From a virus, in the IMG/VR virus record IMGVR_UViG_3300025424_000296, positions 49,211-113,210 of that record: DNA of 64,000 nucleotides. One strand, 5' to 3'. Every line of letters starts with the position of its first letter. Positions within the stretch are counted from its first letter, which is position 1. The notes beneath the pieces are model-generated. The model made no database searches. It worked only from the letters and a program-made list of their open reading frames with translations, and was not told the DNA's origin. Positions 9,337-56,136 of this stretch are shown piece after piece. Position numbers and translations under genes: made by a program.

Positions 9337-10086
9337 TTATTGGTTAGAAAGCATTCTTTTGGATGTTATGGGTATATTTGCATTTATATCCCATTTTACA
9401 CCATTATATTTTAACCAATCTGTATAAATTTTATGCGGATCAAAGGTATATAAATTCAAATCTGCAAATCTATTTAAATTATTATAAATGTCTGCCCAAA
9501 TATCCATACTCTGGCTATTACCACTCACCCATAAATCATGTAAAATCGCATACTTATCTTTGTAAAATCCGTTATATGTCAAAATGTCGGGGTTTAGTAT
9601 GGTAAGATCAATATCTTGTTCAAATAATACATCCCACCTTGTAGCAATTACGTAATCGTATTTTTTCCCAGTGAAAACTTCTTGTTGTTTTTTAAGGGTT
9701 ATTACTGCACTTCTAGAATGCATTAAGCCAAAAACACCAAGAGGTCTATGTTTAGCAAACGGCATACCAAATCTTTTAAATTGTGTGGTTAATTCTTTAA
9801 ATCTATTGATGTGCAAATTAAAATTATCTAGATGTAAACCTACTGGTTTGGTACAGTTAATCATACCCTCGATGACTCCCAGATCTACAGGCGAACTTGA
9901 TAAATGATACCCGGGGTGATAAAGAGAAGACATACATTGCTCTGGCTCTATTTGAAGTCCGATACTATCAGTCCATGTCATAGCAAATATATCAGGATTA
10001 TATGGTTTGATTAACTTCTGGTAAATTCCTTCCCAACACAACTCAAAAGTTCTAAGATGGCCGTATAAACAAAGAGCAATATTCAT
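9337..10086 (-). CDS. Putative glycosyltransferase-like protein
   Basis: N-terminal IALCLYGHLRTF and YDYVIATRWD motifs typical of phage GT-like proteins. Confidence 0.6.
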   Translation of the reverse strand: MNIALCLYGHLRTFELCWEGIYQKLIKPYNPDIFAMTWTDSIGLQIEPEQCMSSLYHPGYHLSSSPVDLGVIEGMINCTKPVGLHLDNFNLHINRFKELTTQFKRFGMPFAKHRPLGVFGLMHSRSAVITLKKQQEVFTGKKYDYVIATRWDVLFEQDIDLTILNPDILTYNGFYKDKYAILHDLWVSGNSQSMDIWADIYNNLNRFADLNLYTFDPHKIYTDWLKYNGVKWDINANIPITSKRMLSNQ

Positions 10087-16383: not shown

Positions 16384-16391
16384 GAAATGTT

Positions 16392-16883: not shown

Positions 16884-16896
16884 TATAAAATAACCA

Positions 16897-16928: not shown

Positions 16929-16943
16929 CTCTATAATAGCATG

Positions 16944-17378: not shown

Positions 17379-17391
17379 GTTAGTGGTCAAC

Positions 17392-17742
17392 ATGTCTAGA
17401 ATAACACTTATTTGTTTATTGTTTCTTATACTTATTGGAATATTTTCTAAAGATCAAACAGAATCTGACAAACTCAATGTTAGTTGTTATACCAAAAATC
17501 AGTTAGATACTATAATAGATAATAGAAAATTTCAAACTTTTACACAGTCATTCTACGATAATGGTAAAGTACTTGAAATAATGATTACGCCACTATTTAA
17601 TAAAGAAATTATAACAATTGAATATGTTCGTGGTACATCTAACTATTGTATTACATCAATTACTCATGGCACTACAATAAATGAGGAATGGATAGAAATA
17701 TTGTATAATACTTTACAAAAAATAAAAGGTCTCAAAGTTTAA
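17392..17742 (+). CDS. Membrane-anchored hypothetical protein
   Basis: N-terminal TM helix. Confidence 0.6.
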   Translation: MSRITLICLLFLILIGIFSKDQTESDKLNVSCYTKNQLDTIIDNRKFQTFTQSFYDNGKVLEIMITPLFNKEIITIEYVRGTSNYCITSITHGTTINEEWIEILYNTLQKIKGLKV

Positions 17743-17805
17743 GTTTTAAACTCGGTGGATTATAAATATGGTGTGTTTATAATAAACACTGTAAGGAGAA
17801 TTACC

Positions 17806-18051
17806 ATGAATTTAGAGGGATATAAAACATATATAGTTGCGGCCCTCATGGCTGCATTGCCAACTATAACAACCGCTGTTAATCATATTGATTGGGTTAC
17901 AGTACTAACTGGATTGGGTGTTCAAAAGGAGTGGATCGTACCACTTGCAAGTTTCGCAGCAGCAGTGGTTATGGCCATAATGAGAAAAATTACTCAGGCT
18001 ACGACTGTTAAGACTGCATTAGAAACAGAGCCTCCAAAAAAGCAGGGTTGA
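17806..18051 (+). CDS. Putative small holin
   Basis: TATAAATA at 17761, AAGGAG RBS, GYKTY N-terminus, hydrophobic segments, charged tail. Confidence 0.5.
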   Translation: MNLEGYKTYIVAALMAALPTITTAVNHIDWVTVLTGLGVQKEWIVPLASFAAAVVMAIMRKITQATTVKTALETEPPKKQG

Positions 18052-18122
18052 CAAAACGCTAAAAAACACTATATTTAAACTTTAGCATTGGCATGATGAT
18101 GAGTCTGTAAGACCTGTGTTAT

Positions 18123-18197
18123 GTTCCGGTGCCAGAGTAGTTATGGAGCAGACTGCAAATCTGTTTTAGGTGGGTGCAAGTCCCTCCCGGAACTCCA
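18123..18197 (+). tRNA. tRNA-Cys(GCA)
   Basis: GTTCCGG/CCGGAAC, GCAGA-CTGCAAA-TCTGT, U73, CCA; promoter TTGACA at 18048. Confidence 0.88.
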
Positions 18198-18415: not shown

Positions 18416-18439
18416 TACACGGTGATAATGGAGAGTAAC

Positions 18440-20137
18440 ATGGAATACAAGGCCCCAGTTGATAGTGTTTTATTTCTACTACGAGATGTGTTAAAATTTG
18501 ATAGTGATATTACTGAAGCTATTTTAACTGAGGCTGCTAAATTAGCCGAGGAATCAATTGCTCCTACTAATCAACAGGGCGACGAAGCGGGATGTTTCTT
18601 AGTCAATGGACCAGGATTAGAACGCCCAGAAGTGGTAACACCGGCATCATTTAAAGAACCATGGAAGCAATTTTGCAAGGGTGGTTGGCTGGGATTATCA
18701 GTACCCGAAGAGTATGGCGGACAGGGATTACCATATACCATTGCTTGTGTTATTAATGAGTTTGTATCCAGCGCCAATATGGCTTTAAGTCTTTATCCCG
18801 GTCTGACTCGCGGTGCTATTCAAGCATTGCTAGAGGTAGCAACAGAGGAACAGAAACAACAATTTATTCCCAAAATGGCCACCGGTGAGTGGACAGGTAC
18901 TATGAACCTAACAGAACCGCACTGTGGAACTGATCTGGGATTGCTTAAAACCAAAGCAACAGTTAGTGAGAATGGTACATATAACATAACTGGACAAAAG
19001 ATCTTTATCAGTTGTGGCGAACACGATCTCAGCAAGAATATCATTCACCTTGTGCTGGCAAGAGTAGAAGGTGATCAACCGGGGACAAAAGGTATTAGTT
19101 TATTCATTGTTCCCAAAATGATTGATGATCAGTATAATGCAGTATCGTGTGGCTCTATTGAACATAAGATGGGTATTCACGGGTCAAGTACCTGTGTTAT
19201 GAACTATGACGGGGCCGTTGGGTATCTTGTAGGTGAACGTGGTAAAGGTTTAAATGCCATGTTTATCATGATGAATGAAGCGCGACTAGGAGTTGCAGTA
19301 CAGGGATTATCACAAAGTGAATTGGCTTACCAAAATGCTGTTGCATATGCTAAAGATAGACTCCAGGGGCGTTCGCTTACTGGTGCAAAGTTTCCGGACC
19401 GAGCAGCCGATCCTATTATTGTTCACCCTGATGTGCGTCGTATGCTTATGGATATTAAGGCTGTAAATGAAGCTGGACGTCTTTTGATATTAGAAGCAGC
19501 TTTGCTATGTGAAGATAAGTCAGATGCTGCACAAGACAGATTAGGATTGATGACTCCGATTCTTAAAGGTCTTCTTACAGATTTGGGATTCGAAAATGCT
19601 GTAAAGGCACAGCAGGTATTCGGCGGACATGGTTATATTCGAGAATGGGGTATGGAACAAATTGTTCGTGACGCTCGTATTGCTCAAATATACGAGGGTG
19701 CCAATGGTGTTCAAGCTATGGATTTAATTGGGCGTAAACTTCCAAAGAATATGGGCCGTGCAGTTAAGAACTTTTTTGATGAAAATGAAAAGATTCTCAT
19801 CGACTTCATGCTTGATCCGCTTACAACAGTATCTCCTATAGCGACAGATGTATATGGAGCATTAAACGACCTAAAGGCAGCAACTAAATGGTTGATGCAA
19901 AATGCACTTAAAAATCCCAATAATGCTGGATCTGCTGCTTATGATTACATGTACTTGTTTGGTATTGTGTTGCTGGGACTTGCGCATGTTAAGATAGTTG
20001 CTGCCACTGATGATGCGGATAGACACATAACAGCCAAATATTTCATTGAACGTATTTTACCAGAAACTAAATTACGTCTCTCCCGTATCCAAGCAGGATC
20101 AGGTACAATGATGTCATTGAGTGACACTGGTTTTTGA
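18440..20137 (+). CDS. Acyl-CoA dehydrogenase (FadE5/DmdC-like long form)
   Basis: GTMNLTEPHCGTDL, GQKIFIS, EHKMGIHGS, QVFGGHGYI.EWG.EQ..RDARI..IYEGANG. Confidence 0.95.
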   Translation: MEYKAPVDSVLFLLRDVLKFDSDITEAILTEAAKLAEESIAPTNQQGDEAGCFLVNGPGLERPEVVTPASFKEPWKQFCKGGWLGLSVPEEYGGQGLPYTIACVINEFVSSANMALSLYPGLTRGAIQALLEVATEEQKQQFIPKMATGEWTGTMNLTEPHCGTDLGLLKTKATVSENGTYNITGQKIFISCGEHDLSKNIIHLVLARVEGDQPGTKGISLFIVPKMIDDQYNAVSCGSIEHKMGIHGSSTCVMNYDGAVGYLVGERGKGLNAMFIMMNEARLGVAVQGLSQSELAYQNAVAYAKDRLQGRSLTGAKFPDRAADPIIVHPDVRRMLMDIKAVNEAGRLLILEAALLCEDKSDAAQDRLGLMTPILKGLLTDLGFENAVKAQQVFGGHGYIREWGMEQIVRDARIAQIYEGANGVQAMDLIGRKLPKNMGRAVKNFFDENEKILIDFMLDPLTTVSPIATDVYGALNDLKAATKWLMQNALKNPNNAGSAAYDYMYLFGIVLLGLAHVKIVAATDDADRHITAKYFIERILPETKLRLSRIQAGSGTMMSLSDTGF

Positions 20138-26947: not shown

Positions 26948-27823
26948 TCAAGTGGTTCTTTGATCAACAAGTTCTCTTATTTTTTGTTTGAGAGAGTTGT
27001 CTAATCCAGTTGGCACAGTGATTTTAACTGTAACAATACAATCTCCGCGAGCATGTCCGTTCCCTCTCAAAGGCATTCCGCGCCCGCTAATTTTTAAATT
27101 GGTATCAGGTTGTGTACCCTCTGGTATGGTTAATCTGACTTTTTGACCATCTATACATGTTAAAGTGTGATCACATCCAATAATAGCTGACAATGCATCG
27201 ACAGTTATTTCTGTATGAAGATTTGCTCCGTTCCTGCGGAAAACAGCGTGATTTAAAATCAAAACATTTATGTATAAATCCCCAGGAGGGGCATTTGGTA
27301 TAGATCTATCACCGTGTCCCTGGTAACGTATACGGGTACCATTTTCAATACCAGCTGGTATTTCCACGTTCAAATTGTAATTTTGTCCGTTAACTGTAAA
27401 TTGTATCGGAGTGTGTTTGCCTGTAAATGCTTCTTCCAGTGTTAGATGTAGTTCAAATGTAAAATCTTTGTTACGTGCTTGACGACCGGGATGTCCAAAT
27501 CCGTGTTGATTAAAAAATTGATTAATTATGTCTTCCATACCACCACCGCCAAATTCAAAATTAAAGTTGAATCCGCCGTGTTGGAATGGATTTCCACCTG
27601 GATGCCCGCCGCCGAATTGACGCATTTGGTCATATCTGGCTCTAGCCTCAGGATCGCCTATTTCAGAATAAGCAGTGCTTATTTTTTTAAAGCGTTCTTC
27701 AGCAGCAGCATTACCCTGATTTTTGTCAGGGTGAAACTGCATTGCTAGCTTGCGATAAGCTGATTTTATTTCTTCTTGTGAGGCGTTTTCTGCAACGCCG
27801 AGAGTGCTATAATGATTTTCCAT
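26948..27823 (-). CDS. dnaJ: Class B DnaJ/CbpA-like co-chaperone
   Basis: J domain with HPD, G/F region, no Zn finger, C-terminal substrate-binding domains. Confidence 0.92.
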   Translation of the reverse strand: MENHYSTLGVAENASQEEIKSAYRKLAMQFHPDKNQGNAAAEERFKKISTAYSEIGDPEARARYDQMRQFGGGHPGGNPFQHGGFNFNFEFGGGGMEDIINQFFNQHGFGHPGRQARNKDFTFELHLTLEEAFTGKHTPIQFTVNGQNYNLNVEIPAGIENGTRIRYQGHGDRSIPNAPPGDLYINVLILNHAVFRRNGANLHTEITVDALSAIIGCDHTLTCIDGQKVRLTIPEGTQPDTNLKISGRGMPLRGNGHARGDCIVTVKITVPTGLDNSLKQKIRELVDQRTT

Positions 27824-27910
27824 AGTAAAATAATTATAATATCTTTAACCACACTGTCAATGGTTGATAGATCAAAAGTAAATATTATTACAAAAATTTT
27901 TGAGACTGCT

Positions 27911-28645
27911 ATGACTGATAACACCGATAATACTGATAACGACCTTGATACACAACTAAAAGTTGAAATTAAACCAACTATGTTGCAGATTTTAGTAGAA
28001 TATCTTACTAAAACCAGTCCGGGTTTATTGATATTACACTTATTTTATATCATGATGGTATGTGCATCATTGAGTTTTTCATATGTAATGGCTTTCCATT
28101 GGGCCACAGTTGTTCAAATCTATACAGATGCACACGATGTTAAAGGTTTTAGCAAAAATCTTAAAATGAGTGTGGAAAATGACACTAAGATTGCAGAATT
28201 GTTACACGAAACATTAGACAAAACTGGTGGAATTAGAGCATATGTTTATAGATATCATAATGGTTTAGCTGCTATCAGCAGTGTTCCATTCTTTTTTCAA
28301 ACCAATACACATGAAATTATAGCACCAGGTGGCACCAGACTGTTACCATATGAACAAAGAATTCCAGCTAGTTTTAATATTCTTATCAATAATCAATTTA
28401 TTAAAAATCAATGTGCTATAGTCACTAATACTGATGAGGACAAAGGTAGTAACTATTATTATTTTTGGACCAGTAGAGGAGCAAAATCATTTATACGTTG
28501 TCCAATCTATTTAGATAACGGTGATTTATTCGGATTTGTCGGTGTCGACTATGCAACCAACGGCACTCAACTTAAAAAAGATGCTCAGGACTTGGAAGAA
28601 GTTGCTACACAAATAGGCAATATATTTGAAACTGGTAGAAAATAA
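27911..28645 (+). CDS. TM plus GAF-like protein, possible T4 gp-t-type holin
   Basis: One TM segment followed by RAYVYRYHNG...CPIY...LFGFVGVDY GAF-like pattern; GTAAATA upstream. Confidence 0.55.
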   Translation: MTDNTDNTDNDLDTQLKVEIKPTMLQILVEYLTKTSPGLLILHLFYIMMVCASLSFSYVMAFHWATVVQIYTDAHDVKGFSKNLKMSVENDTKIAELLHETLDKTGGIRAYVYRYHNGLAAISSVPFFFQTNTHEIIAPGGTRLLPYEQRIPASFNILINNQFIKNQCAIVTNTDEDKGSNYYYFWTSRGAKSFIRCPIYLDNGDLFGFVGVDYATNGTQLKKDAQDLEEVATQIGNIFETGRK

Positions 28646-28652
28646 TTTGTTA

Positions 28653-28682
28653 TTGTTAAGCATATTATCATATGCTTAACAA
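28653..28682. promoter_or_regulatory. Perfect 13-bp inverted repeat abutting the operon start codon
   Basis: TTGTTAAGCATAT-TATC-ATATGCTTAACAA, then ATG at 28683. Confidence 0.6.
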
Positions 28683-29732
28683 ATGGATATAATAATACCG
28701 TGTGCTAGTACTGACACAAACTTTCCAAATATGAGACCTAATTACTTGTTAGCTGACTATCTCAGCCGACGAATGTTAGAGTTGGTTGTAGAACCATATC
28801 TATCTAAATATCGTATACATGTTGTAATAACACAACAAGCTCAGGACTCTTATAATGTTGTCAAGGAGTTTGACACTATATTTGGTGATCAAGTTAATGT
28901 AGTAATACTGTCAAAATCTACATCAGGGTCTGCTGAGTCAGCTTATCAAGCATTAATAAAGTTAAATTTAGAATCAACTGCATTTATGATCCGTGAATGT
29001 ACTGGTATGTTTGCACATGATACAGTATTATCTGGTAATATTATTCATGTTGGAAGTCTAAATCACAGCATAAATTTAACAAATATCACCAATAAAGATT
29101 ATGTAAAGGCTAATGGACAGGGTTTCATTAGTTGTATAGCAGAAAAAGAGGTAATTGGTGATTTATTCTGTGCAGGGGGTTATCAATTTGAGTCTGCCAG
29201 AAAATACAAATTAGCTTACACCAATCTTTTAAAATCTAATGTAGATAAAATTTCGATTAAATCAATTGTTGATTACTATAGTGTGTCTTGGGGGGAAGAT
29301 TTTTCAGTAAATAAAGTCAGCGACTTTGTTGATCTAAGTACTATACAAGATTGGGAAGCTTTTAACGATCGTCCTACAATATTTTGTGACATAGATGGAA
29401 CTATTATACACAATCAAACACCTTATGGCGATAATAACTACGGTGCAACGCCCACAGTGTTAGAAAAGAATGTACAAACATTGAGACACTTTTTAATAAG
29501 AGGCAGTCAGATCATATTTACTACGTCAAGAACCACCAAGTGGTATGCTGAGACTAGACAAATGCTAGATAGTTTGGGTTTTCACAACTGCCAGTTGATT
29601 ATGGATTTACATCATGCAAGAAGAATATTAATAAATGATCATGCACTTACTAACCCTTATCCTAGTGCTGTTGCAATTAATATCAGACGCAATGATGACT
29701 CGTTGGATCAAATGATTGGCAAGAGGAACTAA
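28683..29732 (+). CDS. Degenerate nucleotidyltransferase fused to HAD phosphatase
   Basis: IIIPCA N-terminus lacking GxGxR, AEKEVI; C-terminal FCDIDGT, FTTSR, RILIND. Confidence 0.75.
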   Translation: MDIIIPCASTDTNFPNMRPNYLLADYLSRRMLELVVEPYLSKYRIHVVITQQAQDSYNVVKEFDTIFGDQVNVVILSKSTSGSAESAYQALIKLNLESTAFMIRECTGMFAHDTVLSGNIIHVGSLNHSINLTNITNKDYVKANGQGFISCIAEKEVIGDLFCAGGYQFESARKYKLAYTNLLKSNVDKISIKSIVDYYSVSWGEDFSVNKVSDFVDLSTIQDWEAFNDRPTIFCDIDGTIIHNQTPYGDNNYGATPTVLEKNVQTLRHFLIRGSQIIFTTSRTTKWYAETRQMLDSLGFHNCQLIMDLHHARRILINDHALTNPYPSAVAINIRRNDDSLDQMIGKRN

Positions 29733-29734
29733 TT

Positions 29735-30457
29735 ATGCAGATTCTTATCCCAATGGCCGGTGCTGGCAGCAGATTTGCAAAAGTAGGATATTCAAAACCA
29801 AAGCCATTAATAGACGTTGATGGTCTTCCGATGATCTCTAGAGTTATTGATAATCTTGGACCAGACAATGATTATATTTTCATAGTACAAAAATCGGTTC
29901 TAGATGATTATGAAAAAGATTTAATTTCAGCTACTGATTTTGCAAAATCTAGTAAATTTTTAATTGCTAATGGATTAACAGAGGGTGCTGCACAAACCTG
30001 CTTACTAGCCAAAGACTCGTTGGATATGGATTCTCCATTAATGATTGCCAATTGTGATCAAATTATGGATTGGAATTATGATCATTTTTACAAATGGTTT
30101 GACACAACATTTAGTGACGGATCAATAATCACTTTCTCAAGCATAGAACCTAACAATAGTTATGTAACTCTGAGAGAGGACGGATATATATTAGAAGCAC
30201 AAGAAAAAATAGTTATATCAGACATAGCTACCACAGGTGTTTATATATGGCGACAAGCACGAGATTTTATGGTATCAGCTGAGGAAATGATATCAAAAAA
30301 TATCAGATATAATAATGAATTTTATGTATGTCCTGTTTATAATCAAATTGTAGAGAAGGGCAAGTTAATTAACGTTTATCATATTAAAAGTCACTGGCCG
30401 ATCGGAACACCAGAAGATTTAGAAATATATTTGAAGCATAGACATGAAAGAATATAG
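29735..30457 (+). CDS. Sugar-phosphate nucleotidyltransferase-like protein
   Basis: IPMAGAGSRF, PKPLI, TEGAA, NCDQ, EK.VIS, EFYVCPVYN, GTPEDL. Confidence 0.85.
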   Translation: MQILIPMAGAGSRFAKVGYSKPKPLIDVDGLPMISRVIDNLGPDNDYIFIVQKSVLDDYEKDLISATDFAKSSKFLIANGLTEGAAQTCLLAKDSLDMDSPLMIANCDQIMDWNYDHFYKWFDTTFSDGSIITFSSIEPNNSYVTLREDGYILEAQEKIVISDIATTGVYIWRQARDFMVSAEEMISKNIRYNNEFYVCPVYNQIVEKGKLINVYHIKSHWPIGTPEDLEIYLKHRHERI

Positions 30458-30773
30458 TGTAGAACAATTTAAATTAGGATGGTTTATCGGAGACTTCGAA
30501 CCCAGTGTCCTCCGAACATCTGACTTTGAAGTCTGTTATAGAATCCAGAAAAAAGGCGAGATACATAAACCACATGTTCATCCCATTGGCACAGAGTATA
30601 ACTATCTTATTCGAGGCGAAATGACAGTAAATGGTAAAAAGTTTATAGGACCTGTTATATTTGTTATAGAACCCGGGGAAGCTGTTTATCCAACGATGGA
30701 CACAGACTGCGAGTTAATTATAGTTAAGACTCCTAGCTTAGTTACAGATAAGATATTGGTAGAAGACCTATGA
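30444..30773 (+). CDS. Cupin-domain protein
   Basis: GWFIGDF.P, HVH...EYNYLIRG, VKTPS. Confidence 0.75.
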   Translation: MKEYSVEQFKLGWFIGDFEPSVLRTSDFEVCYRIQKKGEIHKPHVHPIGTEYNYLIRGEMTVNGKKFIGPVIFVIEPGEAVYPTMDTDCELIIVKTPSLVTDKILVEDL

Positions 30774-31903
30774 ATATTATAATTAATACAAAAGATCTTA
30801 AAAAGTATTTTTGGGTAAAGTATTGGGTATCATCAAAAACGGATCTCAATACCGCAGCACATGAAATAGCCATTGGACAGAGTATAGGTAACCCAAACAA
30901 ACGTAGTCTCTGGGAAACTGATACAATGATCAACGACTATTGTAATAAGATATTAGATACAGGTAACCTTGACCAGCCACAGGGCTATGTAGAAATAGGT
31001 TTTCCTTATGAACTATTAGATTGGCAAGAAGATGGTATAAGTCAACTGCTTTGTGTAATCATGGGCGGGCAAATGGATATTGACAACATAACCAGTTGTC
31101 GTGCAACTGATATTGAATTTGATGATAGTGTAATTGCTCCCTATTTTCTCGGTCCGCAGTTTGGTATTAGTGGTATAAGAAATCGGGTAAAAGTCCATAA
31201 CAAACCCCTATTTGGCGGTATTATTAAACCAAAAACTGGTATTACACCCAACCAGTTACTAGACATGACCAAAGAGTTAGTAGAGGGCGGTGTAAACTTT
31301 ATTAAGGAAGATGAGATACTGGGAAATCCTAGTGTTTGTAGACTACGGGATCGTGTTCCACTTATATCAAAATATTTACAGGATAAAAATGTAATCTACT
31401 GCTACTGTATAAATAGTGATCCTTTATATGTATTAGACCGAGCTAAATTTGTTGCAGAAAATGGCGGCAACGGTGTTCATGTAAATGTATGGAGCGGTCT
31501 AGGTGTTTATAAAAGTATTAGAGATTTAGATCTACCACTTTTCATACACTATCAAAAAAGTGGTGATAGAACTTTTACAAATAGTTTGCATGACTTTAAC
31601 ATAAGCTGGGATATATTGTGTAAACTTGCAGGCATGTGCGGAGTTGACTTTATACATGCCGGAATGTGGGGAGGATATTTGAGTAATACAGACGACGAGC
31701 TACATCGCACATTAGGCATACTTAGAAGTCTCGGTGTAATGCCTGCATTAAGTTGCGGAATGCATGCGGGATTAATAGCACCTATCACTGAAAGATTTGG
31801 TACAGATTGGATGGCAAACGTAGGCGGTGCAATACATGCAGATCCCGGTGGTACTCGTGCTGGTAGTTTACGAATAAAACATGCCATTGAGAATCTAAAA
31901 TGA
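30770..31903 (+). CDS. RuBisCO-like protein (form IV)
   Basis: GPQFGI.G.R, GGIIKPKTG, GGVNFIKEDE, GVDFIHAG, SCGMH, GGAIH.DP.G..AG. Confidence 0.9.
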   Translation: MNIIINTKDLKKYFWVKYWVSSKTDLNTAAHEIAIGQSIGNPNKRSLWETDTMINDYCNKILDTGNLDQPQGYVEIGFPYELLDWQEDGISQLLCVIMGGQMDIDNITSCRATDIEFDDSVIAPYFLGPQFGISGIRNRVKVHNKPLFGGIIKPKTGITPNQLLDMTKELVEGGVNFIKEDEILGNPSVCRLRDRVPLISKYLQDKNVIYCYCINSDPLYVLDRAKFVAENGGNGVHVNVWSGLGVYKSIRDLDLPLFIHYQKSGDRTFTNSLHDFNISWDILCKLAGMCGVDFIHAGMWGGYLSNTDDELHRTLGILRSLGVMPALSCGMHAGLIAPITERFGTDWMANVGGAIHADPGGTRAGSLRIKHAIENLK

Positions 31904-32370
31904 AATTAATTTCACACCGAGGTTTGATAAATGGGCCAGATTTGCAATTGGAAAATACCGAGGATGCTATAACACAATGTTTGTTAAAAGGTCTTGAAGT
32001 AGAAGTAGATGTGTGGTTCAACGAAGATAGTAGCACTTGGTGGTTAGGTCACGATTTTCCTCAGTATAAAACTTCAAGAGATTTCGTATTCCAACTTGGG
32101 TTATGGATACACGCTAAAAATTTTGCAGCAGCTAAAGAATTAAATTCGTGTTGGAAGTCTGGCAATGTACATCTCAATTATTTTTGGCATGAGAATGACC
32201 ATAGAACATTGACAAGTCTCGGATATTGGTGGACATTTCCGCAACAAGAACTCGGTCCTACTAGTGTAGCAGTAATGCCAGAAAGATATACGCTATTAAC
32301 CGATTTACATTTATGTGTTACATGGAATTGTTATGGTGTATGCAGTGATTATATTAATAAACTGATATAA
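31900..32370 (+). CDS. Short GDPD/PLC-like phosphodiesterase
   Basis: LISHRG, EN, VEVDVW, LGHD, WIHAKN, GVCSD. Confidence 0.75.
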   Translation: MKLISHRGLINGPDLQLENTEDAITQCLLKGLEVEVDVWFNEDSSTWWLGHDFPQYKTSRDFVFQLGLWIHAKNFAAAKELNSCWKSGNVHLNYFWHENDHRTLTSLGYWWTFPQQELGPTSVAVMPERYTLLTDLHLCVTWNCYGVCSDYINKLI

Positions 32371-32449
32371 TAAAATTTATCAATATTATTGATAAAAATT
32401 GAATAATTACCGTATAATTAAAGCATAATTTATTGGAGACTTAAATTCC

Positions 32450-33694
32450 ATGTCAAAAATTGATTTGTCTACATATGAACAAGATCCTAGTAATCCTTCA
32501 GAAATATTGAATATAGCTGGGCACTGTGCTGAGCAGGGACAACATGATTCTGCCATGTTATTTGCTGAATCAGTTTATAGGATGAATAATCTGTCAAATG
32601 AAGTAAAGGTACAAGCATTAGAACGTTTTGCAATATCCGGTTTCTATAGTAAAATACCTTCTAGAAAACTATTAGGTAAACAGGCCTGCGAATTATTAGC
32701 CATGAACAAAGATATTAACTGGAATACCAGATATGTAGCTGGTCAAAATAGCACTTGGTATGCAAGTTCATCTAATGAATTATTTTCCAACACTGTATTG
32801 AAGCATTTAGACTTTACACCGCCAGACGATTATCTTCCATTAAACCCATCTATATACAGGTGGGGTAATCAGTTATGGATGATACAACGTACGGTGAATT
32901 ATGTTATAACTCCAAGCGGTCATTATGACATGCGCGGTGACACCGCCATAAGAACTCGTAATTGGTTGTTGAAATTAAATTCTGATCTAACGGTACATAG
33001 TGCTAGAGAAATATTACCGCCAGTTGATCTTCCAGAACCACTTTATAATTTAGTAATTGGTTTTGAAGACAATAGACTATTTGTGTGGCAAGATCAGCTA
33101 TGGTGTACGTCAACTGTCAGGGAATTAAACCAACCGGGTAATTGCGAAATAGTACTATCAAGAATAGATGATACTGAAGACGGTAAGTGTCGATATAGTA
33201 ACTGGAGAGTTATACATCCAAAGGGTGTGGAATTTCAACATCAAAAAAATTGGATGCCTGTAGTAATAAATCAAGATCTAAGATTTATATATAGCAGTGA
33301 TCCTGTTAGAATCATTGATGACCAAGGTGAAATAGTTATGCAGCACGAAGCTGTTGATGCCACTGATAGTTTCAGAGGCGGGTCACAAGCTATTAGATTT
33401 AATAATGGGTGGTTGGCTATAATACATGAAAGCCATATGATGCCCGATCAACGTCGTAGATACATGCATCGATTTGTATGGTATAATGAAAATTTTGATT
33501 TAGCAGCTTATACGCCGGCATTTTATATAGCCAAACTTGGTATTGAATTTGCAGCAGGAATAGCAGAACATCCACTTACTAACAAAATAATTGTAAGCTT
33601 TGGATTAGCAGACAACGAAAGCTGGTTAGCTGAATTTGAACCAGTTTCGATACTTGCTGCATTAAAATATATCAAAAGAAAAGAATCAAACTGA
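32450..33694 (+). CDS. Helical N-terminus plus GH130-like beta-propeller protein
   Basis: NPSI, GFEDNRLF, QKNWMP, FRGGSQ, YMHRFV, IEFAAG. Confidence 0.7.
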   Translation: MSKIDLSTYEQDPSNPSEILNIAGHCAEQGQHDSAMLFAESVYRMNNLSNEVKVQALERFAISGFYSKIPSRKLLGKQACELLAMNKDINWNTRYVAGQNSTWYASSSNELFSNTVLKHLDFTPPDDYLPLNPSIYRWGNQLWMIQRTVNYVITPSGHYDMRGDTAIRTRNWLLKLNSDLTVHSAREILPPVDLPEPLYNLVIGFEDNRLFVWQDQLWCTSTVRELNQPGNCEIVLSRIDDTEDGKCRYSNWRVIHPKGVEFQHQKNWMPVVINQDLRFIYSSDPVRIIDDQGEIVMQHEAVDATDSFRGGSQAIRFNNGWLAIIHESHMMPDQRRRYMHRFVWYNENFDLAAYTPAFYIAKLGIEFAAGIAEHPLTNKIIVSFGLADNESWLAEFEPVSILAALKYIKRKESN

Positions 33695-33695
33695 T

Positions 33696-35612
33696 ATGAA
33701 TGACATAGAAACAAAGTCTCCATTAGAAGATCCTCAGGTACTATTAGGGATATGTCAATATTTCGATTCAAAAGATAAACACAATGATGTTATGAAAATC
33801 TATGAACAGTCAATGCCTATACCTCAGTTGGATAGCGTAAAAACAGACTTTCTTCGATTAGCAGCGGTCAGTGGATTTTACAGTGATTTAGACTACTATA
33901 AAAAACTAGGTAAAGAAGCTAGCGAACAGTTAATGTCTAGCCGTAAAGTTTCTGCCACTGATAGAGACTTTGCAAGGCGTAACGGTACTTGGTACAATAA
34001 TCTAATCAAAGATCTCATTCCGTCTGCCATTTTAAAAAAGATTGAATTCAATTGTCCAGTTGGATATCGTTCAACTACTCCGAGTATCACATCCCATGGT
34101 GGTAAAATATGGATGTTACAACGGTCAATAAATCTACACGATGAGAATTATAATTTTGTTGATCCGGATGCAATATGGTGGTGTACAAAAAATTACATAC
34201 TACAACTAGATAATGATTTGAATGTTGTATATAGTGAAGAAATTAAACCGCCTGCTGATATGCAATTACCTGTTAGAGGTTTTGAAGATGCAAGACTGTT
34301 TTTTCTAGGCAACGAACTTTGGTGTTCGTGCTCATCATTAGATTTCAACGAAAACGGTGTATCTCAAATGCTTACAACTAGAATAGACGGTATAGGAACA
34401 GGAGATTGCAGATTCACTAACTATCAAGTAATGAAACCCAATTTTGGTTATGGTCAAGTTGAAAAAAATTGGATGCCGTTTGTCGAAAACAATTTACCAT
34501 ATTTCATATACAATTGTGATCCTGTGATCATAGTAGATAATAACGGTCACCTGATTGATTCTCGAGCAACACATATTGCTGCTGAAAGTTATAGGGGCGG
34601 TACTCAATTATTGGAATTCGATGATGGGTATCTGGCATTGATACATGAATCACTGGACATGGATTGGGGTGTTCGTCGTTATATGCATAGATTTGTTTGG
34701 TTTAATAGAAGTTTACAACTGACAAAGTATAGCAATTATTTTTCAATTGATGAAATAACATTAGAAGTTAGTGTTGAATTTGCTGCTGGTATAACTGTTC
34801 ATCCAATAACAGATAAATTACTGATAAGTTTTGGTAAAAATGAGTTAGAGACATGGATTGTAACAGTTGATCCAGATGATGTAAGAAATGTATTGAAGCC
34901 GGCTGGTTTAGCCTGTGAAAGATTGCCATTTGATGCAGAAACATTAAAACTATTGGAATATGAAACCAACAGAGCACTTAAAGATACCGCTACGGTAGAA
35001 AAATTTACTAATTTATTAAAAAAATATAACCTGCCATTACACGTAACACCGCAGAAAAATTGGGATAACTTGATTGCAATATATCATACAGTGCTAACCA
35101 CTGACGTTGATACTCCCATAATGGATATAGCAGGAACAGCTGACTCGGCATATCTTCCAAGCTTGTATAAATTTGGTTACAGAGATTTAACCAGTATTAA
35201 CCTGTCAGAACATGAACCTGTATTAAAAGATGGTGTTGTATATCAATACGGGGACTGTACTAACACAGGTTTCCCTGATGAATACTTTGGATTTATATCT
35301 TGTCTAAGTGTTATCGAACATGGTGTAGATATTGATGGATTCTTCAGAGAATCACATAGAATACTAAAGAAAAAAGGTAGATTGTTTGTTAGTACAGATT
35401 ACTGGCAGCATCCTGTCAATACGTTTGGCAAAATGGCATATTGGAACCCAGTTGTAATATTTGATGCAGCAGGAATAAGTGACATGGTTGCTAAAGCAGA
35501 AGCACACGGATTTGAATTAACTGGACCAGCGGATTTAACTTGTTATGACAAGGCAGTACACTGGGACGAAATGGACTACACATTTATTAATTTGTTGTTC
35601 AGCAAACGGTAA
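33696..35612 (+). CDS. Paralogous beta-propeller fused to a SAM methyltransferase domain
   Basis: GFEDARLF, EKNWMP, YRGGTQ, YMHRFV; C-terminal MDIAG, SCLSVIEHG, RILKKKG. Confidence 0.7.
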   Translation: MNDIETKSPLEDPQVLLGICQYFDSKDKHNDVMKIYEQSMPIPQLDSVKTDFLRLAAVSGFYSDLDYYKKLGKEASEQLMSSRKVSATDRDFARRNGTWYNNLIKDLIPSAILKKIEFNCPVGYRSTTPSITSHGGKIWMLQRSINLHDENYNFVDPDAIWWCTKNYILQLDNDLNVVYSEEIKPPADMQLPVRGFEDARLFFLGNELWCSCSSLDFNENGVSQMLTTRIDGIGTGDCRFTNYQVMKPNFGYGQVEKNWMPFVENNLPYFIYNCDPVIIVDNNGHLIDSRATHIAAESYRGGTQLLEFDDGYLALIHESLDMDWGVRRYMHRFVWFNRSLQLTKYSNYFSIDEITLEVSVEFAAGITVHPITDKLLISFGKNELETWIVTVDPDDVRNVLKPAGLACERLPFDAETLKLLEYETNRALKDTATVEKFTNLLKKYNLPLHVTPQKNWDNLIAIYHTVLTTDVDTPIMDIAGTADSAYLPSLYKFGYRDLTSINLSEHEPVLKDGVVYQYGDCTNTGFPDEYFGFISCLSVIEHGVDIDGFFRESHRILKKKGRLFVSTDYWQHPVNTFGKMAYWNPVVIFDAAGISDMVAKAEAHGFELTGPADLTCYDKAVHWDEMDYTFINLLFSKR

Positions 35613-35628
35613 TTTAATGGAGACTTAG

Positions 35629-36708
35629 ATGAGTACAAAGAAATTAAGAATCGGTGTTTACTGCCCTGCTAAAAATGAATTAAAGCATGTAGAACCCTGG
35701 TATGAAAGTTGCAGGAATGCTGATGTTGTAGTATGTGCTGATACGGGTAGCACAGACGGTACAAAAGAAAAGATGTTGGAACTTGGAGTAAAAGTAACCG
35801 ATTTAAGAATACTACCGTGGCGGTTTGACGACGCATTTAATTTTGCAATGGCATTGTTACCTGACGATATTGATGTTTGCATACGATTAGATTTGGATGA
35901 ACGTCTGCAGCCTGGTTGGCGGGCTGCACTTGAAGCAGCATGGACCCCTGAGACTACTCGTTTACGTTATCCATATGTTTGGAATTGGAACCCAGATGGT
36001 TCTCCCGGACGTCAATGGTACGGAGACCGTATTCATCATAGAAATGGTTTTCGTTGGATGGGAGCAACTCATGAGGGGCTGTGTTCTAGAATACATGAAG
36101 TACAGACATTTACGGACGATGTTAAAATATATCAATATCCAGATGCCAAGGATAAGAAGCATGATCTTCCTCTGTTATTAGAAGCAACTAAAGAGTATCC
36201 AACTGATGCAAGATTGCGGGCATATCTGGGTAGAGAATATTTTTATAGAGGAGAAAATGACAAGGCAGTTGAAACTTATAAAGAGTTTCTTGGCATGAGC
36301 TGGGACAAGATTGAACGAGGTCAGGCTATGATTAACCTATCAAATGCAGATCCAAAAAATAAAGTATTTTGGTTAAAGATGGCTATTATAGAAACACCCG
36401 GTCATAGAGAACCATTAACAAATCTATCTCAGCATTATTATAATAATGAGGATTGGACCAAGTGTTACAAGTATGCTATGGATGCCTTAAAGATCACAAA
36501 ACATCCTATGGATTATACTTGCACACCAGAAGCCTGGGGATACTTGCCGCATGATTTAGCCAGTATTTCTGCTTGGCATCTTGGTTTATATAAAGAAAGT
36601 ATGGAACAGGCAAAATTAGCACTAGAACGTAGTCCAAATGACAAACGATTAGAGAATAATCTTAAGATTGTGGAAGAATTCATGAATGAACGATTAACTA
36701 ACGAGTAA
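35629..36708 (+). CDS. GT2 glycosyltransferase with TPR domain
   Basis: KNE, DTGSTDGT, WRFD, LDLDE, THE; TPR-like C-terminus. Confidence 0.88.
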   Translation: MSTKKLRIGVYCPAKNELKHVEPWYESCRNADVVVCADTGSTDGTKEKMLELGVKVTDLRILPWRFDDAFNFAMALLPDDIDVCIRLDLDERLQPGWRAALEAAWTPETTRLRYPYVWNWNPDGSPGRQWYGDRIHHRNGFRWMGATHEGLCSRIHEVQTFTDDVKIYQYPDAKDKKHDLPLLLEATKEYPTDARLRAYLGREYFYRGENDKAVETYKEFLGMSWDKIERGQAMINLSNADPKNKVFWLKMAIIETPGHREPLTNLSQHYYNNEDWTKCYKYAMDALKITKHPMDYTCTPEAWGYLPHDLASISAWHLGLYKESMEQAKLALERSPNDKRLENNLKIVEEFMNERLTNE

Positions 36709-36738
36709 TAGGTGATTAAACTGTTAATAAATAAAAGT

Positions 36739-36948
36739 ATGAAATTGTTTGAGTTATTCGTTGACTACGATAAACCTATTGTAATTGAAGCAGGTGGTGT
36801 TGGCCGCATAGTACCAGGTATCAACACCACATCTGACGTCGGGCCAAATGAAGTTGCCAAACAAGCAAAGAAGTTTGGTAATAAAGTTACCCGAGATGGC
36901 CGTCCCCCCATTGCCAGACCTGATGGCAAAAATGTTAACAAAAAATGA
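36739..36948 (+). CDS. Small late protein
   Basis: ATAAATA immediately upstream; MKLFEL start. Confidence 0.6.
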   Translation: MKLFELFVDYDKPIVIEAGGVGRIVPGINTTSDVGPNEVAKQAKKFGNKVTRDGRPPIARPDGKNVNKK

Positions 36949-37295
36949 CACATTGGTTAGTACTATGGAAAACATGGTTAGAAGAAGAGATTGAAACACC
37001 ATGGCCTTTTGTAGTAGTTGATCGTACTGCTGATTTCAAAAACAGAGAAACAAGTGTTCGAGTTCCCCAAGAATTGGTAGATTCTATATTTTTATCTTTT
37101 GATGTAGATAAAGTTCATAAATTTCAATCAGAACATGTATATGCACTTGTGTTATCGTGTGTGCTAGAAGCAGCTGATCAACCAGCTGCTGTGCAGTTGG
37201 TACAATCGGTATTTCCGGATGCCGAGGTTACTAACTGTGCCCTAATACCTCTGGAAATGTTATCAACTGTTATGGAAAACTTTTCACAAAAATAG
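36945..37295 (+). CDS. Hypothetical protein
   Basis: ATGA overlap with the upstream gene. Confidence 0.65.
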   Translation: MTHWLVLWKTWLEEEIETPWPFVVVDRTADFKNRETSVRVPQELVDSIFLSFDVDKVHKFQSEHVYALVLSCVLEAADQPAAVQLVQSVFPDAEVTNCALIPLEMLSTVMENFSQK

Positions 37296-37318
37296 GCACT
37301 GAATTTCCTCAGTGCCTA
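37293..37318. terminator. Bidirectional terminator hairpin
   Basis: TAGGCACTGA / TCAGTGCCTA between convergent genes. Confidence 0.65.

Positions 37319-42834: not shown

Positions 42835-56136
<13,302 letters not shown>

What the first reader, a model, noticed from the sequence alone, without database searches (positions are those of the whole stretch)
28653..32370. Phage RuBisCO-like protein inside a nucleotide-sugar operon
SEEN: a tightly coupled operon of NTase-HAD fusion, nucleotidyltransferase, cupin, RLP and GDPD-like genes, followed by glycan enzymes. The RLP keeps KPK.G and the carbamylated-Lys motif as KEDE (KDDE in RuBisCO), but has HYQKSG where RuBisCO has H.HRA. KNOWN: form IV RLPs do not fix CO2; characterised ones act in methionine salvage or in catabolism of branched sugars such as apiose/apionate. 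INFERENCE: here an RLP appears to be used biosynthetically, to rearrange a sugar phosphate into an unusual, possibly branched, sugar that is activated and transferred to virion, DNA or host surface.
Basis: partly seen in the sequence, partly recalled or inferred. Interest (0 to 1): 0.7.

Follow-up and report, generated by a model that had tools for sequence, protein, structure and literature searches.

The report
Phage RuBisCO-like sugar-activation gene cassette
A very large uncultured phage carries an intact relative of the CO2-fixing enzyme RuBisCO that cannot fix CO2. From phages to SAR11, Legionella and tiny archaea this gene is always paired with (occasionally fused to) a sugar-activating enzyme, so it probably builds an unusual activated sugar unit for a surface glycan, a job never tested for this enzyme family.

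Summary
Window 28683-32370 holds five translationally coupled genes: NTase-like/HAD fusion, nucleotidyltransferase (NTase), small cupin, RuBisCO-like protein (RLP) and a miniature GDPD phosphodiesterase, inside an 11-gene co-directional array.

The RLP belongs to the divergent phage 'form IV-like' clade that Jaffe et al. reported in 2019 with function unknown. On my tree the clade is monophyletic (SH-aLRT 99), apart from MtnW, OiaX and true RuBisCO. Its active-site signature is nearly invariant: Mg/carbamate and enolisation residues are kept, carboxylation residues are lost.

In 80 viral loci the NTase, cupin and mini-GDPD accompany the RLP in 78, 69 and 69, despite shuffled gene order. In 48 cellular loci (SAR11, CPR, DPANN, Legionella, Nonomuraea) RLP+NTase is the obligatory pair (44/48). 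Fused forms exist: RLP-NTase, NTase-cupin and NTase-HAD.

Neighbours are glycan enzymes. DUF7796 folds as a GT-A glycosyltransferase, and Legionellaceae carry a LicD.

The HAD fusion and the downstream genes are not conserved. 'Branched sugar' and the target of the glycan are unsupported.

Most likely the RLP isomerises a keto-sugar phosphate that the NTase activates for glycan decoration. The substrate is unknown.

This scan found the same cassette before on other DNA (91 notes, at least 57 genomes).

The parts
27812..28645 (+). 277-aa protein of unknown function, first gene of the co-directional array
   Evidence: Only a weak sub-threshold GAF hit. Homologues sit directly upstream of the NTase in the 4 closest viral loci.
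28683..29732 (+). 349-aa fusion of a degenerate NTase-like domain (1-225) and a HAD phosphatase-type domain (228-349)
   Evidence: HAD IIIB/PNKP-type hits at 228-307, all below cut-off; DxDxT motif present. The N-terminal half is 24% identical to the adjacent NTase (E 3e-8) with GxGxR replaced. Found in 2 of 80 viral loci.
29735..30457 (+). 240-aa nucleotidyltransferase, the obligatory partner of the RLP
   Evidence: PF00483 above cut-off. The family profile matches PDB 4EVW at 2e-34 over its full length. Next to the RLP in 78/80 viral and 44/48 cellular loci. Fused to the RLP in P0127.
30444..30773 (+). 109-aa single-domain cupin, an accessory member
   Evidence: Family alignment keeps H44-x-H46...E51...G58. 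The profile hits cupins (quercetinase 3e-6, small Cupin_2 proteins). Present in 69/80 viral loci, fused to the NTase in GVMAG-type loci, and absent genome-wide from Legionella and a complete Pelagibacter genome.
30770..31903 (+). 377-aa RuBisCO-like protein of the phage/CPR/DPANN/SAR11 'IV-like' clade
   Evidence: Pfam 7.8e-29. Best PDB hits are form III RuBisCO at 1e-31. Clade signature and tree placement. 143 IMG/VR contigs and 48 species genomes carry relatives.
31900..32370 (+). 156-aa miniature GDPD-type phosphodiesterase, an accessory member
   Evidence: Present in 69/80 viral loci. A full-length GDPD (PF03009) sits nearby in 9 cellular loci that lack the mini form. Absent from Legionella and a verrucomicrobial chromosome.
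32450..33694 (+). 414-aa virus-only protein, possibly a glycosyltransferase-type/TPR protein
   Evidence: No Pfam hit. The Atlas structure search gives TM 0.82 to viral GT2/TPR families, a lead only. Not conserved next to the cassette (0/80).
33696..35612 (+). 638-aa protein with a C-terminal SAM-dependent methyltransferase domain
   Evidence: Methyltransf_11 2.1e-8 at 501-565. Not conserved (0/80).
35629..36708 (+). 359-aa GT2-like/TPR protein
   Evidence: Weak GT2 (3.9e-4, below cut-off) and TPR hits. Conserved in the 4 closest loci.
36712..37295 (+). Two small ORFs (78 and 116 aa) that end the array
   Evidence: ORF list. The 116-aa ORF has no family hit; the 78-aa ORF was not scanned. The 78-aa ORF is conserved in 4 loci.
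37293..37318 (.). GC-rich hairpin at the end of the array, terminator-like on both strands
   Evidence: No terminator-like site on the + strand inside 27812-37295.
9337..10086 (-). Remote DUF7796 homologue, a GT-A-fold glycosyltransferase-like protein
   Evidence: This family flanks the cassette directly in about 27 viral loci. AF2 model pLDDT 79. Foldseek gives GT6-type retaining glycosyltransferases at probability 1.0, E 3e-7. In this window it lies about 21 kb from the cassette.

Best explanation
The RLP and the adjacent 4EVW-type nucleotidyltransferase form a two-enzyme core that makes a nucleotide-activated, unusual sugar unit for glycan decoration.

The RLP keeps the carbamylated-Lys/Mg2+ site and the enolising lysines of RuBisCO but lacks the residues needed for CO2 addition and C-C cleavage. 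I infer that it enolises a keto-sugar phosphate from central metabolism and re-protonates it, acting as an isomerase or epimerase. The NTase then couples the product's phosphate to an NMP.

The cupin (an extra isomerisation or epimerisation step), the mini-GDPD (a phosphodiester-cleaving step) and the HAD domain (removal or shift of a phosphate) are lineage-dependent accessories. GT-A/GT2 glycosyltransferases install the unit in phages, LicD does so in Legionellaceae, and FkbM-type methyltransferases often modify it.

Shown: gene content, conservation, fusions, folds and the active-site pattern.

Inferred: the direction of the pathway, the reaction type, the substrate, whether the unit is transferred as a glycosyl or as a phospho-sugar group, and the acceptor.
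For: - RLP+NTase are adjacent in 78/80 viral loci and 44/48 cellular loci despite shuffled order and strand.
- They form a single polypeptide in P0127, which is 52% identical to the window RLP.
- NTase-cupin fusions and NTase-HAD fusions occur in three independent forms.
- The clade-wide signature is invariant from phages to Legionella (36% identity): K175, K177, K201, E202, D203, E204, Q294, K295, D298, H327, Y334, S379, C380, G381, G403, G404.
- Recurrent neighbours are SDR epimerase/dehydratase (27 loci), FkbM and TylF methyltransferases, DegT aminotransferase, GT2, GT10, UDP-Glc dehydrogenase, UDP-GlcNAc 2-epimerase, PMM and carbamoyltransferase.
- DUF7796 directly flanks the cassette in about 27 loci and folds as a GT-A glycosyltransferase.
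- Cellular contexts match: GT2 follows the NTase in Nonomuraea, SDR and GT2 appear in SAR11, CPR and DPANN loci, and LicD sits next to the RLP in 4 Legionellaceae.
- Genome-wide absence of the cupin and the mini-GDPD from Legionella shows that RLP+NTase suffices as a core.
- No conserved kinase was seen among the recurrent neighbour families, which fits a phosphorylated central metabolite as the input.
Against: - No biochemical data exist for any clade member.
- RLP chemistry normally yields ketose phosphates with a primary phosphate, not the anomeric phosphate that classical PF00483 enzymes use, and no mutase is conserved.
- The role of a phosphodiesterase in an NDP-sugar route is unexplained.
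- The glycan genes nearby could serve other sugars of the same cluster.
- In Legionella the wider surroundings are not an obvious LPS locus (FAD monooxygenase, CMD, antiporter).
- The order of the steps could be reversed, with the NTase acting first and the RLP acting on an NDP-keto-sugar.
Confidence: 0.6

Rival explanations
1. This is a variant of the core idea with different transfer chemistry. The NTase activates a primary phosphate of the RLP product, giving a CDP-ketopentose- or CDP-pentitol-like donor, as is known for xylulose-5-P, ribitol-5-P or choline-P cytidylyltransferases. The unit is then installed as a phosphodiester-linked substituent, and the GDPD acts on that kind of bond.
For: - A LicD-family phospho-alcohol transferase (3e-43) lies divergently next to the RLP in all 4 Legionellaceae loci.
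- GDPD-type phosphodiesterases, mini or full-length, accompany the RLP in 69/80 viral and about 31/48 cellular loci.
- The minimal RLP+NTase pair has no mutase to make an anomeric phosphate.
- Weak IspD and NTP_transf_3 hits appear on cassette NTases.
Against: - No LicD or TagF-type transferase is present in the window's genome fragment or in any of the 80 viral loci.
- The gene that most often flanks the viral cassette is a GT6-like GT-A glycosyltransferase fold, typical of Leloir glycosyl transfer.
- After 4EVW, the NTase profile scores best against GDP-Man, heptose, dTDP-Glc and GlmU enzymes. LicC, IspD and inositol-P cytidylyltransferases score at 1e-3 to 1e-4.
Confidence: 0.22
2. The RLP and the cupin work as in the Rhodospirillum rubrum MTA-isoprenoid shunt: an RLP 1,3-isomerase followed by a cupin methylsulfurylase. 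Alternatively they work in another 5-deoxy- or methylthio-pentose salvage route, and the link to glycan genes is incidental.
For: An RLP followed by a cupin is a known enzyme pair (PMC6302742). HAD, cupin and RLP also recall MtnX, MtnD and MtnW. Nonomuraea has an AdoHcy-hydrolase-like protein and a nucleoside-kinase-like gene beside the cassette.
Against: - The clade is separated with high support from MtnW and from all other RLP representatives. It misses the MtnW and OiaX model cut-offs by a wide margin.
- The cupin is dispensable and absent genome-wide in Legionella and Pelagibacter, whereas the NTase, which has no role in salvage, is nearly universal and sometimes fused.
- No MtnA, MtnK, MtnP or MtnB appears among the recurrent neighbours.
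Confidence: 0.07
3. The RLP is catabolic, like OiaX and the other acid-sugar RLPs. It would let the infected cell break down an unusual sugar acid or pentose.
For: OiaX is among the better-scoring curated models (NF042437, 110.7 bits). Plasmid RLPs of that type sit next to four-carbon acid-sugar kinases.
Against: That score is far below the cut-off of 700. The clade is separate on the tree. No DUF1537-type kinase, transporter or dehydrogenase set is conserved around it. The conserved partners are an NTase and glycosyltransferases.
Confidence: 0.04
4. It is a working carboxylase (a true RuBisCO) that boosts host carbon fixation.
For: K175, K177, K201, D203, E204 and H327 are kept, and the best structural relatives by sequence are form III enzymes.
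Against: H294 is Q, K334 is Y, R295 is K and H298 is D, and the N-terminal E60, T65 and W66 are replaced. These changes are invariant across the clade. There is no PRK or small subunit nearby. Carriers include non-autotrophs such as Legionella and SAR11.
Confidence: 0.01

Closest known systems
'Form IV-like' RuBisCO-related proteins of phages and Beckwithbacteria (Jaffe, Castelle, Dupont and Banfield 2019, Mol Biol Evol; PMC6389311)
   Same: A divergent RLP on large myovirus-type phage contigs from many environments, related to Beckwithbacteria sequences and lacking several catalytic residues. My searches recover the same distribution: 143 IMG/VR contigs and a Beckwithbacteria MAG at 49% identity.
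   Different: That paper left the function unclear, and the passages I read report no conserved partners. Here the clade is shown to be locked to an NTase (sometimes fused), usually with a cupin and a GDPD, in glycan gene clusters. It also extends to SAR11, DPANN archaea, Legionella, Nonomuraea, Azospirillum and others.
Rhodospirillum rubrum RLP (5-methylthio-D-ribulose-1-P 1,3-isomerase) with its cupin partner (MTXu-5-P methylsulfurylase)
   Same: A non-carboxylating RLP that isomerises a ketose phosphate by enolisation and hands it to a small cupin (PMC6302742). This is the best mechanistic analogy for the RLP and cupin steps.
   Different: It lies on a different branch of the superfamily (no R. 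rubrum reference sequence was available to me). That pathway has no NTase, GDPD or glycosyltransferase, and it serves sulfur salvage and isoprenoid supply rather than glycan synthesis.
MtnW/YkrW 2,3-diketo-5-methylthiopentyl-1-phosphate enolase
   Same: Same fold, with K175, K201, D203 and E204 kept. A HAD (MtnX) and a cupin (MtnD) occur in that pathway too.
   Different: MtnW has Lys at the N123 position, Val or Gly at K177, Pro at R295 and Leu at H327. The window clade has K177, Q294, K295, H327 and Y334. TIGR03332 scores 92.6 bits against a cut-off of 513.6.
PDB 4EVW, 'nucleoside-diphosphate-sugar pyrophosphorylase' (structural-genomics entry)
   Same: Closest solved relative of the cassette NTase: E 2e-34, aligned end to end over about 240 residues.
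   Different: No function or substrate for it is published in the searchable library. Whether its source organism has an RLP was not tested.
Bifunctional GDP-mannose pyrophosphorylase/phosphomannose isomerase (ManC/AlgA type) and the NDP-heptose route (GmhA, kinase, GmhB HAD phosphatase, HddC NTase)
   Same: The NTase-then-cupin order and the NTase-cupin fusions mirror ManC architecture. The HAD-NTase fusions recall GmhB plus HddC acting on a sugar bisphosphate. These are analogies from established pathway knowledge.
   Different: Pfam does not assign the cassette cupin to the PMI family. No isomerase of the SIS type and no kinase is conserved. An RLP takes part here, which is unknown in those routes.

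Membership tests
RuBisCO large-subunit superfamily (PF00016 + PF02788) | Both Pfam domains score above their gathering cut-offs | tested here: met
   PF00016 101.3 bits (cut-off 30.1); PF02788 23.0 bits (cut-off 20.7).
Bona fide RuBisCO (forms I-III) | Complete catalytic and RuBP-binding set (N123, K175, K177, K201, D203, E204, H294, R295, H298, H327, K334, S379, G381, G403, G404) | tested here: not met
   H294 is Q, R295 is K, H298 is D, K334 is Y and G380 is C. N123, E60, T65 and W66 are not kept. The pattern is invariant in 80 viral sequences and in 21 of 22 cellular sequences; the exception is a mis-picked ORF. TIGR03326 scores 160.6 bits against 497.
MtnW/YkrW enolase | Groups with MtnW on a tree and reaches the TIGR03332/NF007095 cut-offs | tested here: not met
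   The clades are separate with SH-aLRT 99/95. Scores are 92.6 against 513.6 and 123.7 against 409.
MtnW/YkrW enolase | Lys at the position of RuBisCO N123 (the general base, from the literature as I recall it) | tested here: not met
   In the tree alignment the MtnW group has K at that column and the window clade has G. The local alignment in this region is uncertain.
OiaX / acid-sugar RLPs | Reaches the NF042437 cut-off and is adjacent to a four-carbon acid-sugar kinase | tested here: not met
   110.7 bits against 700. No such kinase appears among the recurrent neighbours. The clade is separate on the tree.
Phage/Beckwithbacteria 'form IV-like' RLP clade (Jaffe 2019) | A divergent RLP on large phage contigs that clusters with Beckwithbacteria sequences, outside the classical form IV groups | tested here: met
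   143 IMG/VR contigs at 51-62% identity. A Beckwithbacteria MAG at 49%. The clade is monophyletic and apart from the other RLPs. The paper's own sequences were not compared directly.
DeepYkr RLP (R. rubrum type) | Groups with the R. rubrum MTRu-1-P isomerase | not testable with these tools
   No R. rubrum reference sequence was available by reference. The clade is separate from all non-clade RLP representatives.
GDPD (PF03009), for the 156-aa protein | Catalytic motifs HRG, E.D and HD, and the TIM-barrel phosphodiesterase fold | tested here: met
   Invariant H6, R7, E35, D37, H51 and D52. PDB GDPD at 3.7e-4. Foldseek hits to GDPDs at probability 0.97-1.0.
GDPD (PF03009), for the 156-aa protein | Full-length domain (about 240 aa) that reaches the Pfam cut-off | tested here: not met
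   No Pfam hit at E 0.01. At 156 aa it is about 60% of a GDPD, and TM normalised by target is only 0.22-0.38. It is a truncated variant.
Sugar-phosphate nucleotidyltransferase (PF00483), for the 240-aa protein | Pfam cut-off reached and an N-terminal GxGxR(x)nK signature | tested here: met
   28.3 bits against 21.2. The MAGAGSRF...KPKPL signature is visible. The profile hits 4EVW at 2e-34. Substrate specificity was not tested.
GT-A glycosyltransferase, for DUF7796 | GT-A fold with an acidic nucleotide-binding motif | tested here: inconclusive
   The fold match to GT6 enzymes has probability 1.0 and TM about 0.48. D144, R150 and D152 are invariant. There is no sequence-level match to any GT family.

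The most novel reading that the evidence does not exclude
A whole deep branch of the RuBisCO superfamily, spread by large phages and found in SAR11, CPR bacteria, DPANN archaea, Legionella and actinomycetes, is a biosynthetic enzyme. It converts a central keto-sugar (bis)phosphate into the precursor of a so far undescribed nucleotide-activated sugar or phospho-sugar, in an obligatory couple with a dedicated NTase. This would be a new route to a glycan building block and the first anabolic, glycan-directed function for the RuBisCO fold.
Probability: 0.5. Interest if true: 0.8.

Novelty: new variant of a known kind. Interest (0 to 1): 0.66.

Why it matters
All characterised RuBisCO-like proteins work in sulfur salvage or sugar-acid catabolism. 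An RLP that feeds a nucleotidyltransferase in glycan clusters would add a new reaction class and a new activated sugar to glycobiology.

It would also assign a role to a gene that is common in large aquatic phages and in some of the most abundant or most reduced cells on Earth (SAR11, CPR, DPANN). In those cells surface glycans decide phage adsorption and grazing resistance.

The question is directly testable, because cultured carriers exist (Legionella drozanskii, L. maceachernii, L. nautarum, Nonomuraea rosea, Azospirillum oleiclasticum) and the core is only two proteins.

Tried and rejected
- GenBank phage collection: megablast of the operon and tblastn of the RLP both gave no match. No deposited phage in that collection carries it.
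- Plasmids: only other RLP/RuBisCO types at 33% identity or less. I used these as tree references.
- LicD or TagF as the phage transferase: absent from the window genome and from all viral loci. LicD is specific to Legionellaceae.
- A GlpO-like glycerophosphate oxidase in the window (4317-5771) as a link GDPD -> G3P -> DHAP -> RLP: no co-occurrence in 128 other loci, so I dropped it.
- L044 'GDPD-DUF7796 fusion': it is 97% identical to two separate overlapping genes in L043, so it may be a frameshift or assembly error. I did not use it as evidence.
- Mini-GDPD against the full-length DPANN GDPD: only the N-terminal motif block aligns (hhalign E 5.6e-5). That shows family membership, not orthology.
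- Promoter scan: no enrichment over shuffles (54 against 50.4), so I make no promoter claims.
- Cupin specificity: only generic Cupin_2 matches.
- Checking whether the 7 GVMAG-named contigs are true giant viruses: the records are not held.
- Gp23 search in the genome: uninformative, because the control did not ring.
- One cellular sequence (L120) in the residue table is a mis-picked ORF and should be ignored.

Full report
WHAT IS THERE

The window is the last 64 kb of a 113-kb linear IMG/VR virus record that CheckV rates about 28% complete, so it is a fragment of a very large phage. It carries:
- collagen-like tail fibres with a T4 gp34 trimerisation domain and an S74 chaperone;
- an ATP-dependent protease (phrog_4871);
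- five scattered tRNAs and a 4416-aa ORF.

Between 27812 and 37295 eleven ORFs run on the + strand. They are flanked by minus-strand genes and end at a GC-rich hairpin at 37293-37318. The five genes of the finding (28683-32370) are joined by a 2-nt gap and by 14-, 4- and 4-nt overlaps.

IDENTITY OF THE PARTS

| Coordinates | Size | Identity | Evidence |
|---|---|---|---|
| 30770-31903 | 377 aa | RuBisCO large-subunit homologue (RLP) | PF00016 7.8e-29, PF02788 above cut-off; far below every curated subfamily cut-off (form III 160.6/497, MtnW 92.6/513.6, OiaX 110.7/700); best solved relatives are form III enzymes at about 1e-31 |
| 29735-30457 | 240 aa | PF00483 nucleotidyltransferase |; the family profile matches the uncharacterised structural-genomics entry 4EVW end to end at 2e-34, while GDP-Man, heptose, dTDP-Glc and GlmU enzymes follow at 1e-13 or worse; no paper discusses 4EVW's function |
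| 30444-30773 | 109 aa | Minimal cupin | Conserved HxH...E...G; only generic Cupin_2 relatives |
| 31900-32370 | 156 aa | Miniature GDPD | HRG, EN, E.D, GHD, H.KN and C(S/T)D invariant; profile hit to Pyrococcus GDPD at 3.7e-4; AF2 pLDDT 95.9; GDPDs top Foldseek at probability 0.97-1.0 with low target coverage, so the barrel is truncated |
| 28683-29732 | 349 aa | NTase-like/HAD fusion | HAD C-terminus with DxDxT; N-terminal half is a diverged paralogue of the neighbouring NTase (24% identity, 3e-8) with the GxGxR signature replaced |

THE RLP CLADE

A word-indexed search lists over a hundred proteins of about 378 aa at 58-75% identity, almost all metagenomic. An exhaustive search of 1.84 billion cluster representatives gives roughly 24 full-length 50%-identity clusters above 200 bits, followed by a tail of other RLP/RuBisCO types.

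I built a maximum-likelihood tree of 113 sequences. It included named MtnW, OiaX, form I and acid-sugar-kinase-linked RLP references fetched from plasmids. The window falls in a monophyletic group with SH-aLRT 99. That group is separate from the MtnW group, from the OiaX/acid-sugar group and from the group that holds the bona fide RuBisCO signatures.

Across 80 viral sequences and 21 correctly extracted cellular sequences the canonical positions read K175, K177, K201, E202, D203, E204, Q294, K295, D298, H327, Y334, S379, C380, G381, G403, G404, with almost no variation. Reading this pattern:
- The Mg2+/carbamate site, the enolisation lysines and the P1 phosphate cradle are kept.
- The residues needed for carboxylation and cleavage (H294, K334) and part of the distal phosphate site (R295, H298) are changed in one fixed way.
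- I take this to mean one conserved, non-carboxylating, enolisation-based reaction for the whole clade. This is an inference from established RuBisCO and RLP enzymology.

The clade matches the 'form IV-like' phage and Beckwithbacteria group of Jaffe et al. 2019, who stated that its function was unclear (PMC6389311). The existence of phage RLPs is therefore known.

CONSERVED NEIGHBOURHOOD

Of 143 IMG/VR contigs with a relative, 80 were fetched with 8-kb flanks. Homologues of the window's genes occur in the following numbers of those 80 loci.

| Window gene | Viral loci with a homologue (of 80) |
|---|---|
| NTase | 78 |
| Cupin | 69 |
| Mini-GDPD | 69 |
| NTase-like/HAD fusion | 2 |
| 277-aa gene | 4 |
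| GT2/TPR gene | 4 |
| 414-aa gene | 0 |
| 638-aa gene | 0 |

The four core genes appear in at least 20 different orders and orientations. That argues for selection on linkage rather than shared ancestry of one block.

De novo clustering of all ORFs in the loci found further recurrent neighbours:
- a DUF7796 protein (30 loci);
- SDR epimerase/dehydratase (27 loci);
- FkbM methyltransferase (17 loci);
- Methyltransf_24 and TylF methyltransferases, DegT aminotransferase, GT2, GT10, UDP-Glc dehydrogenase, UDP-GlcNAc 2-epimerase, eukaryote-type PMM and carbamoyltransferase.

DUF7796 directly abuts the cassette in about 27 loci. Its AF2 model (pLDDT 79) matches GT6-type retaining GT-A glycosyltransferases at probability 1.0. 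The window's own copy lies 21 kb away at 9337-10086.

FUSIONS

- P0127 (52% identical to the window RLP) is one polypeptide of RLP plus PF00483 NTase.
- About ten loci, mostly GVMAG-named contigs, encode NTase-cupin proteins of about 353 aa.
- NTase-HAD fusions occur in L023, in the window (in degenerate form) and, as HAD_2-NTase, in a complete Pelagibacter genome.
- An apparent GDPD-DUF7796 fusion (L044) is probably a frameshift, because a 97%-identical relative has two separate genes.

CELLULAR CARRIERS

A scan of one genome per prokaryotic species found 48 loci. They come from:
- many SAR11 genomes, including a complete chromosome;
- Patescibacteria and Beckwithbacteria;
- Woese-, Pace-, Micr- and Nanoarchaeota;
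- Verrucomicrobia, Planctomycetes, Elusimicrobia, Turneriella and Francisellaceae;
- Tatlockia, Legionella drozanskii, L. maceachernii and L. nautarum;
- Nonomuraea rosea and Azospirillum oleiclasticum.

The NTase lies next to the RLP in 44 of the 48 loci, the mini-GDPD in 22 and the cupin in 15. Nine loci without the mini-GDPD have a full-length PF03009 GDPD nearby.

Whole-genome searches show two genuine absences. The cupin is absent from three Legionella genomes and from the complete Pelagibacter genome. The mini-GDPD is absent from Legionella and from a complete verrucomicrobial chromosome. RLP+NTase is therefore the obligatory core, and the other two genes are accessories.

The contexts are again glycan-type:
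- SDR and GT2 genes recur.
- FkbM follows the NTase in a Woesearchaeote.
- A GT2 follows the NTase in Nonomuraea, where the island sits beside a phage-type integrase.
- In all four Legionellaceae a LicD-family phospho-alcohol transferase lies divergently next to the RLP.

MECHANISM

Shown:
- an intact, conserved enolisation-type active site without carboxylation residues;
- obligatory pairing and occasional fusion with an NTase;
- frequent cupin, GDPD and HAD accessories;
- glycosyltransferase and sugar-tailoring neighbours.

Inferred: the RLP converts a phosphorylated keto-sugar from central metabolism (no conserved kinase was found) into an isomer. The NTase activates that isomer, and the activated unit is installed on a glycan and often O-methylated. 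I give this general reading a probability of 0.6.

Two versions remain open.
- Classical glycosyl transfer is favoured in phages by the GT-A/GT2 neighbours and by the NTase's affinities.
- Transfer of a phospho-sugar or polyol from a CDP-type donor is favoured by LicD in Legionella, by the GDPD association and by the lack of any mutase. I list this as the main rival (0.22).

The role of the mini-GDPD is unexplained in either version.

Lesser rivals:
- Methionine/MTA-type salvage (0.07). It is contradicted by the tree, by the dispensable cupin and by the indispensable NTase.
- Acid-sugar catabolism (0.04).
- True carboxylation (0.01).

NOVELTY AND STANDING

The RLP clade in phages is published. 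In six searches I found no paper in the searchable library that links it to an NTase/cupin/GDPD/glycosyltransferase cassette or proposes a function.

This scan has noted the same cassette on other DNA many times (91 notes in at least 57 genomes). Those notes are unverified AI readings. I re-tested their main claims here and they held:
- the fusion to the NTase;
- the mini phosphodiesterase;
- the SAR11, Legionella, CPR and DPANN carriers.

One earlier statement was not borne out. It said that the nearest cousins sit in sugar-breakdown operons. By score the nearest outsiders are form III-type enzymes, and the acid-sugar group is a separate branch.

- DUF7796 has a GT-A fold and acts as a fifth cassette member.
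- Full-length GDPDs are present in 9 cellular loci that lack the mini form.
- LicD is linked to the RLP in Legionellaceae.
- 4EVW is the NTase's structural relative.
- Genome-wide absence tests define RLP+NTase as the minimal unit.

VERDICT

It is a new member of a published but functionally unassigned RLP clade. It sits in a conserved cassette whose most likely role, making an unusual nucleotide-activated glycan unit, would be a new kind of job for the RuBisCO fold. The substrate, the product and the acceptor are unknown and need biochemistry.

Noticed in passing
protein P0226 (from; not in the window): A 583-aa protein fuses an N-terminal TIR domain to a RuBisCO-like protein whose K201 position is Phe. 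This could be a defence- or signalling-type use of the fold.
   Followed up: no
proteins P0166 and P0169 (from; not in the window): These are single polypeptides that fuse an IF-2B-family domain (the ribose-1,5-bisphosphate isomerase type) to a RuBisCO with the full catalytic signature. Two steps of the AMP pathway are joined in one protein.
   Followed up: partly
window 4317-5771 (+): The phage encodes an FAD-dependent alpha-glycerophosphate oxidase/dehydrogenase (DAO 3.9e-54 plus DAO_C). It would oxidise the product of a GDPD to DHAP, but it does not co-occur with the cassette in 128 other loci.
   Followed up: yes
window 15096-16319 (+): A TylC3-type NDP-sugar C-methyltransferase (PF08484, 3.8e-44) is the conventional route to a branched-chain sugar. 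Homologues lie within 8 kb of the cassette in L072, L032, L095 and L117.
   Followed up: partly
window 10966-12525 (+) and 18422-20137 (+): Two unusual auxiliary genes: an FAD-dependent halogenase (phrog_2928 'tryptophan halogenase', 2.8e-126) and a four-domain acyl-CoA dehydrogenase.
   Followed up: no
window 42886-56136 (+) and 56766-61649 (+): A 4416-aa ORF has only one collagen stretch recognised. It is followed by a 1627-aa collagen-rich tail fibre (gp34 trimerisation domain, S74 chaperone) whose GC content is 0.46-0.53 against about 0.36 for the rest of the window.
   Followed up: no
window 6062-18197: Five tRNA genes (Asn, Glu, Ile, Thr, Cys) are scattered among metabolic genes rather than clustered.
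   Followed up: no
L119 (Nonomuraea rosea) 5069-12893: The cassette sits beside a phage-type integrase. It is followed by a GT2, an AdoHcy-hydrolase-like NAD-binding protein and a deoxynucleoside-kinase-like protein, which looks like an integrated island.
   Followed up: no
L089 / G004:C1:126106-126492 (Pelagibacter sp. Uisw_094): The mini-GDPD match contains an internal TAA and its open frame is short, so the gene may be decaying in this strain.
   Followed up: no
L097 12162-13772 (-) and 6019-7821 (-) (Woesearchaeota MAG): A B12-binding radical SAM protein and a GHMP-kinase/NTase fusion flank the RLP-NTase-FkbM-GDPD group, so a second sugar-activation route sits in the same cluster.
   Followed up: no
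window 27812-27823: The first gene of the array (start 27812, +) and the divergent 291-aa gene (start 27823, -) overlap head to head by 12 nt, so each promoter must lie inside the other gene.
   Followed up: no
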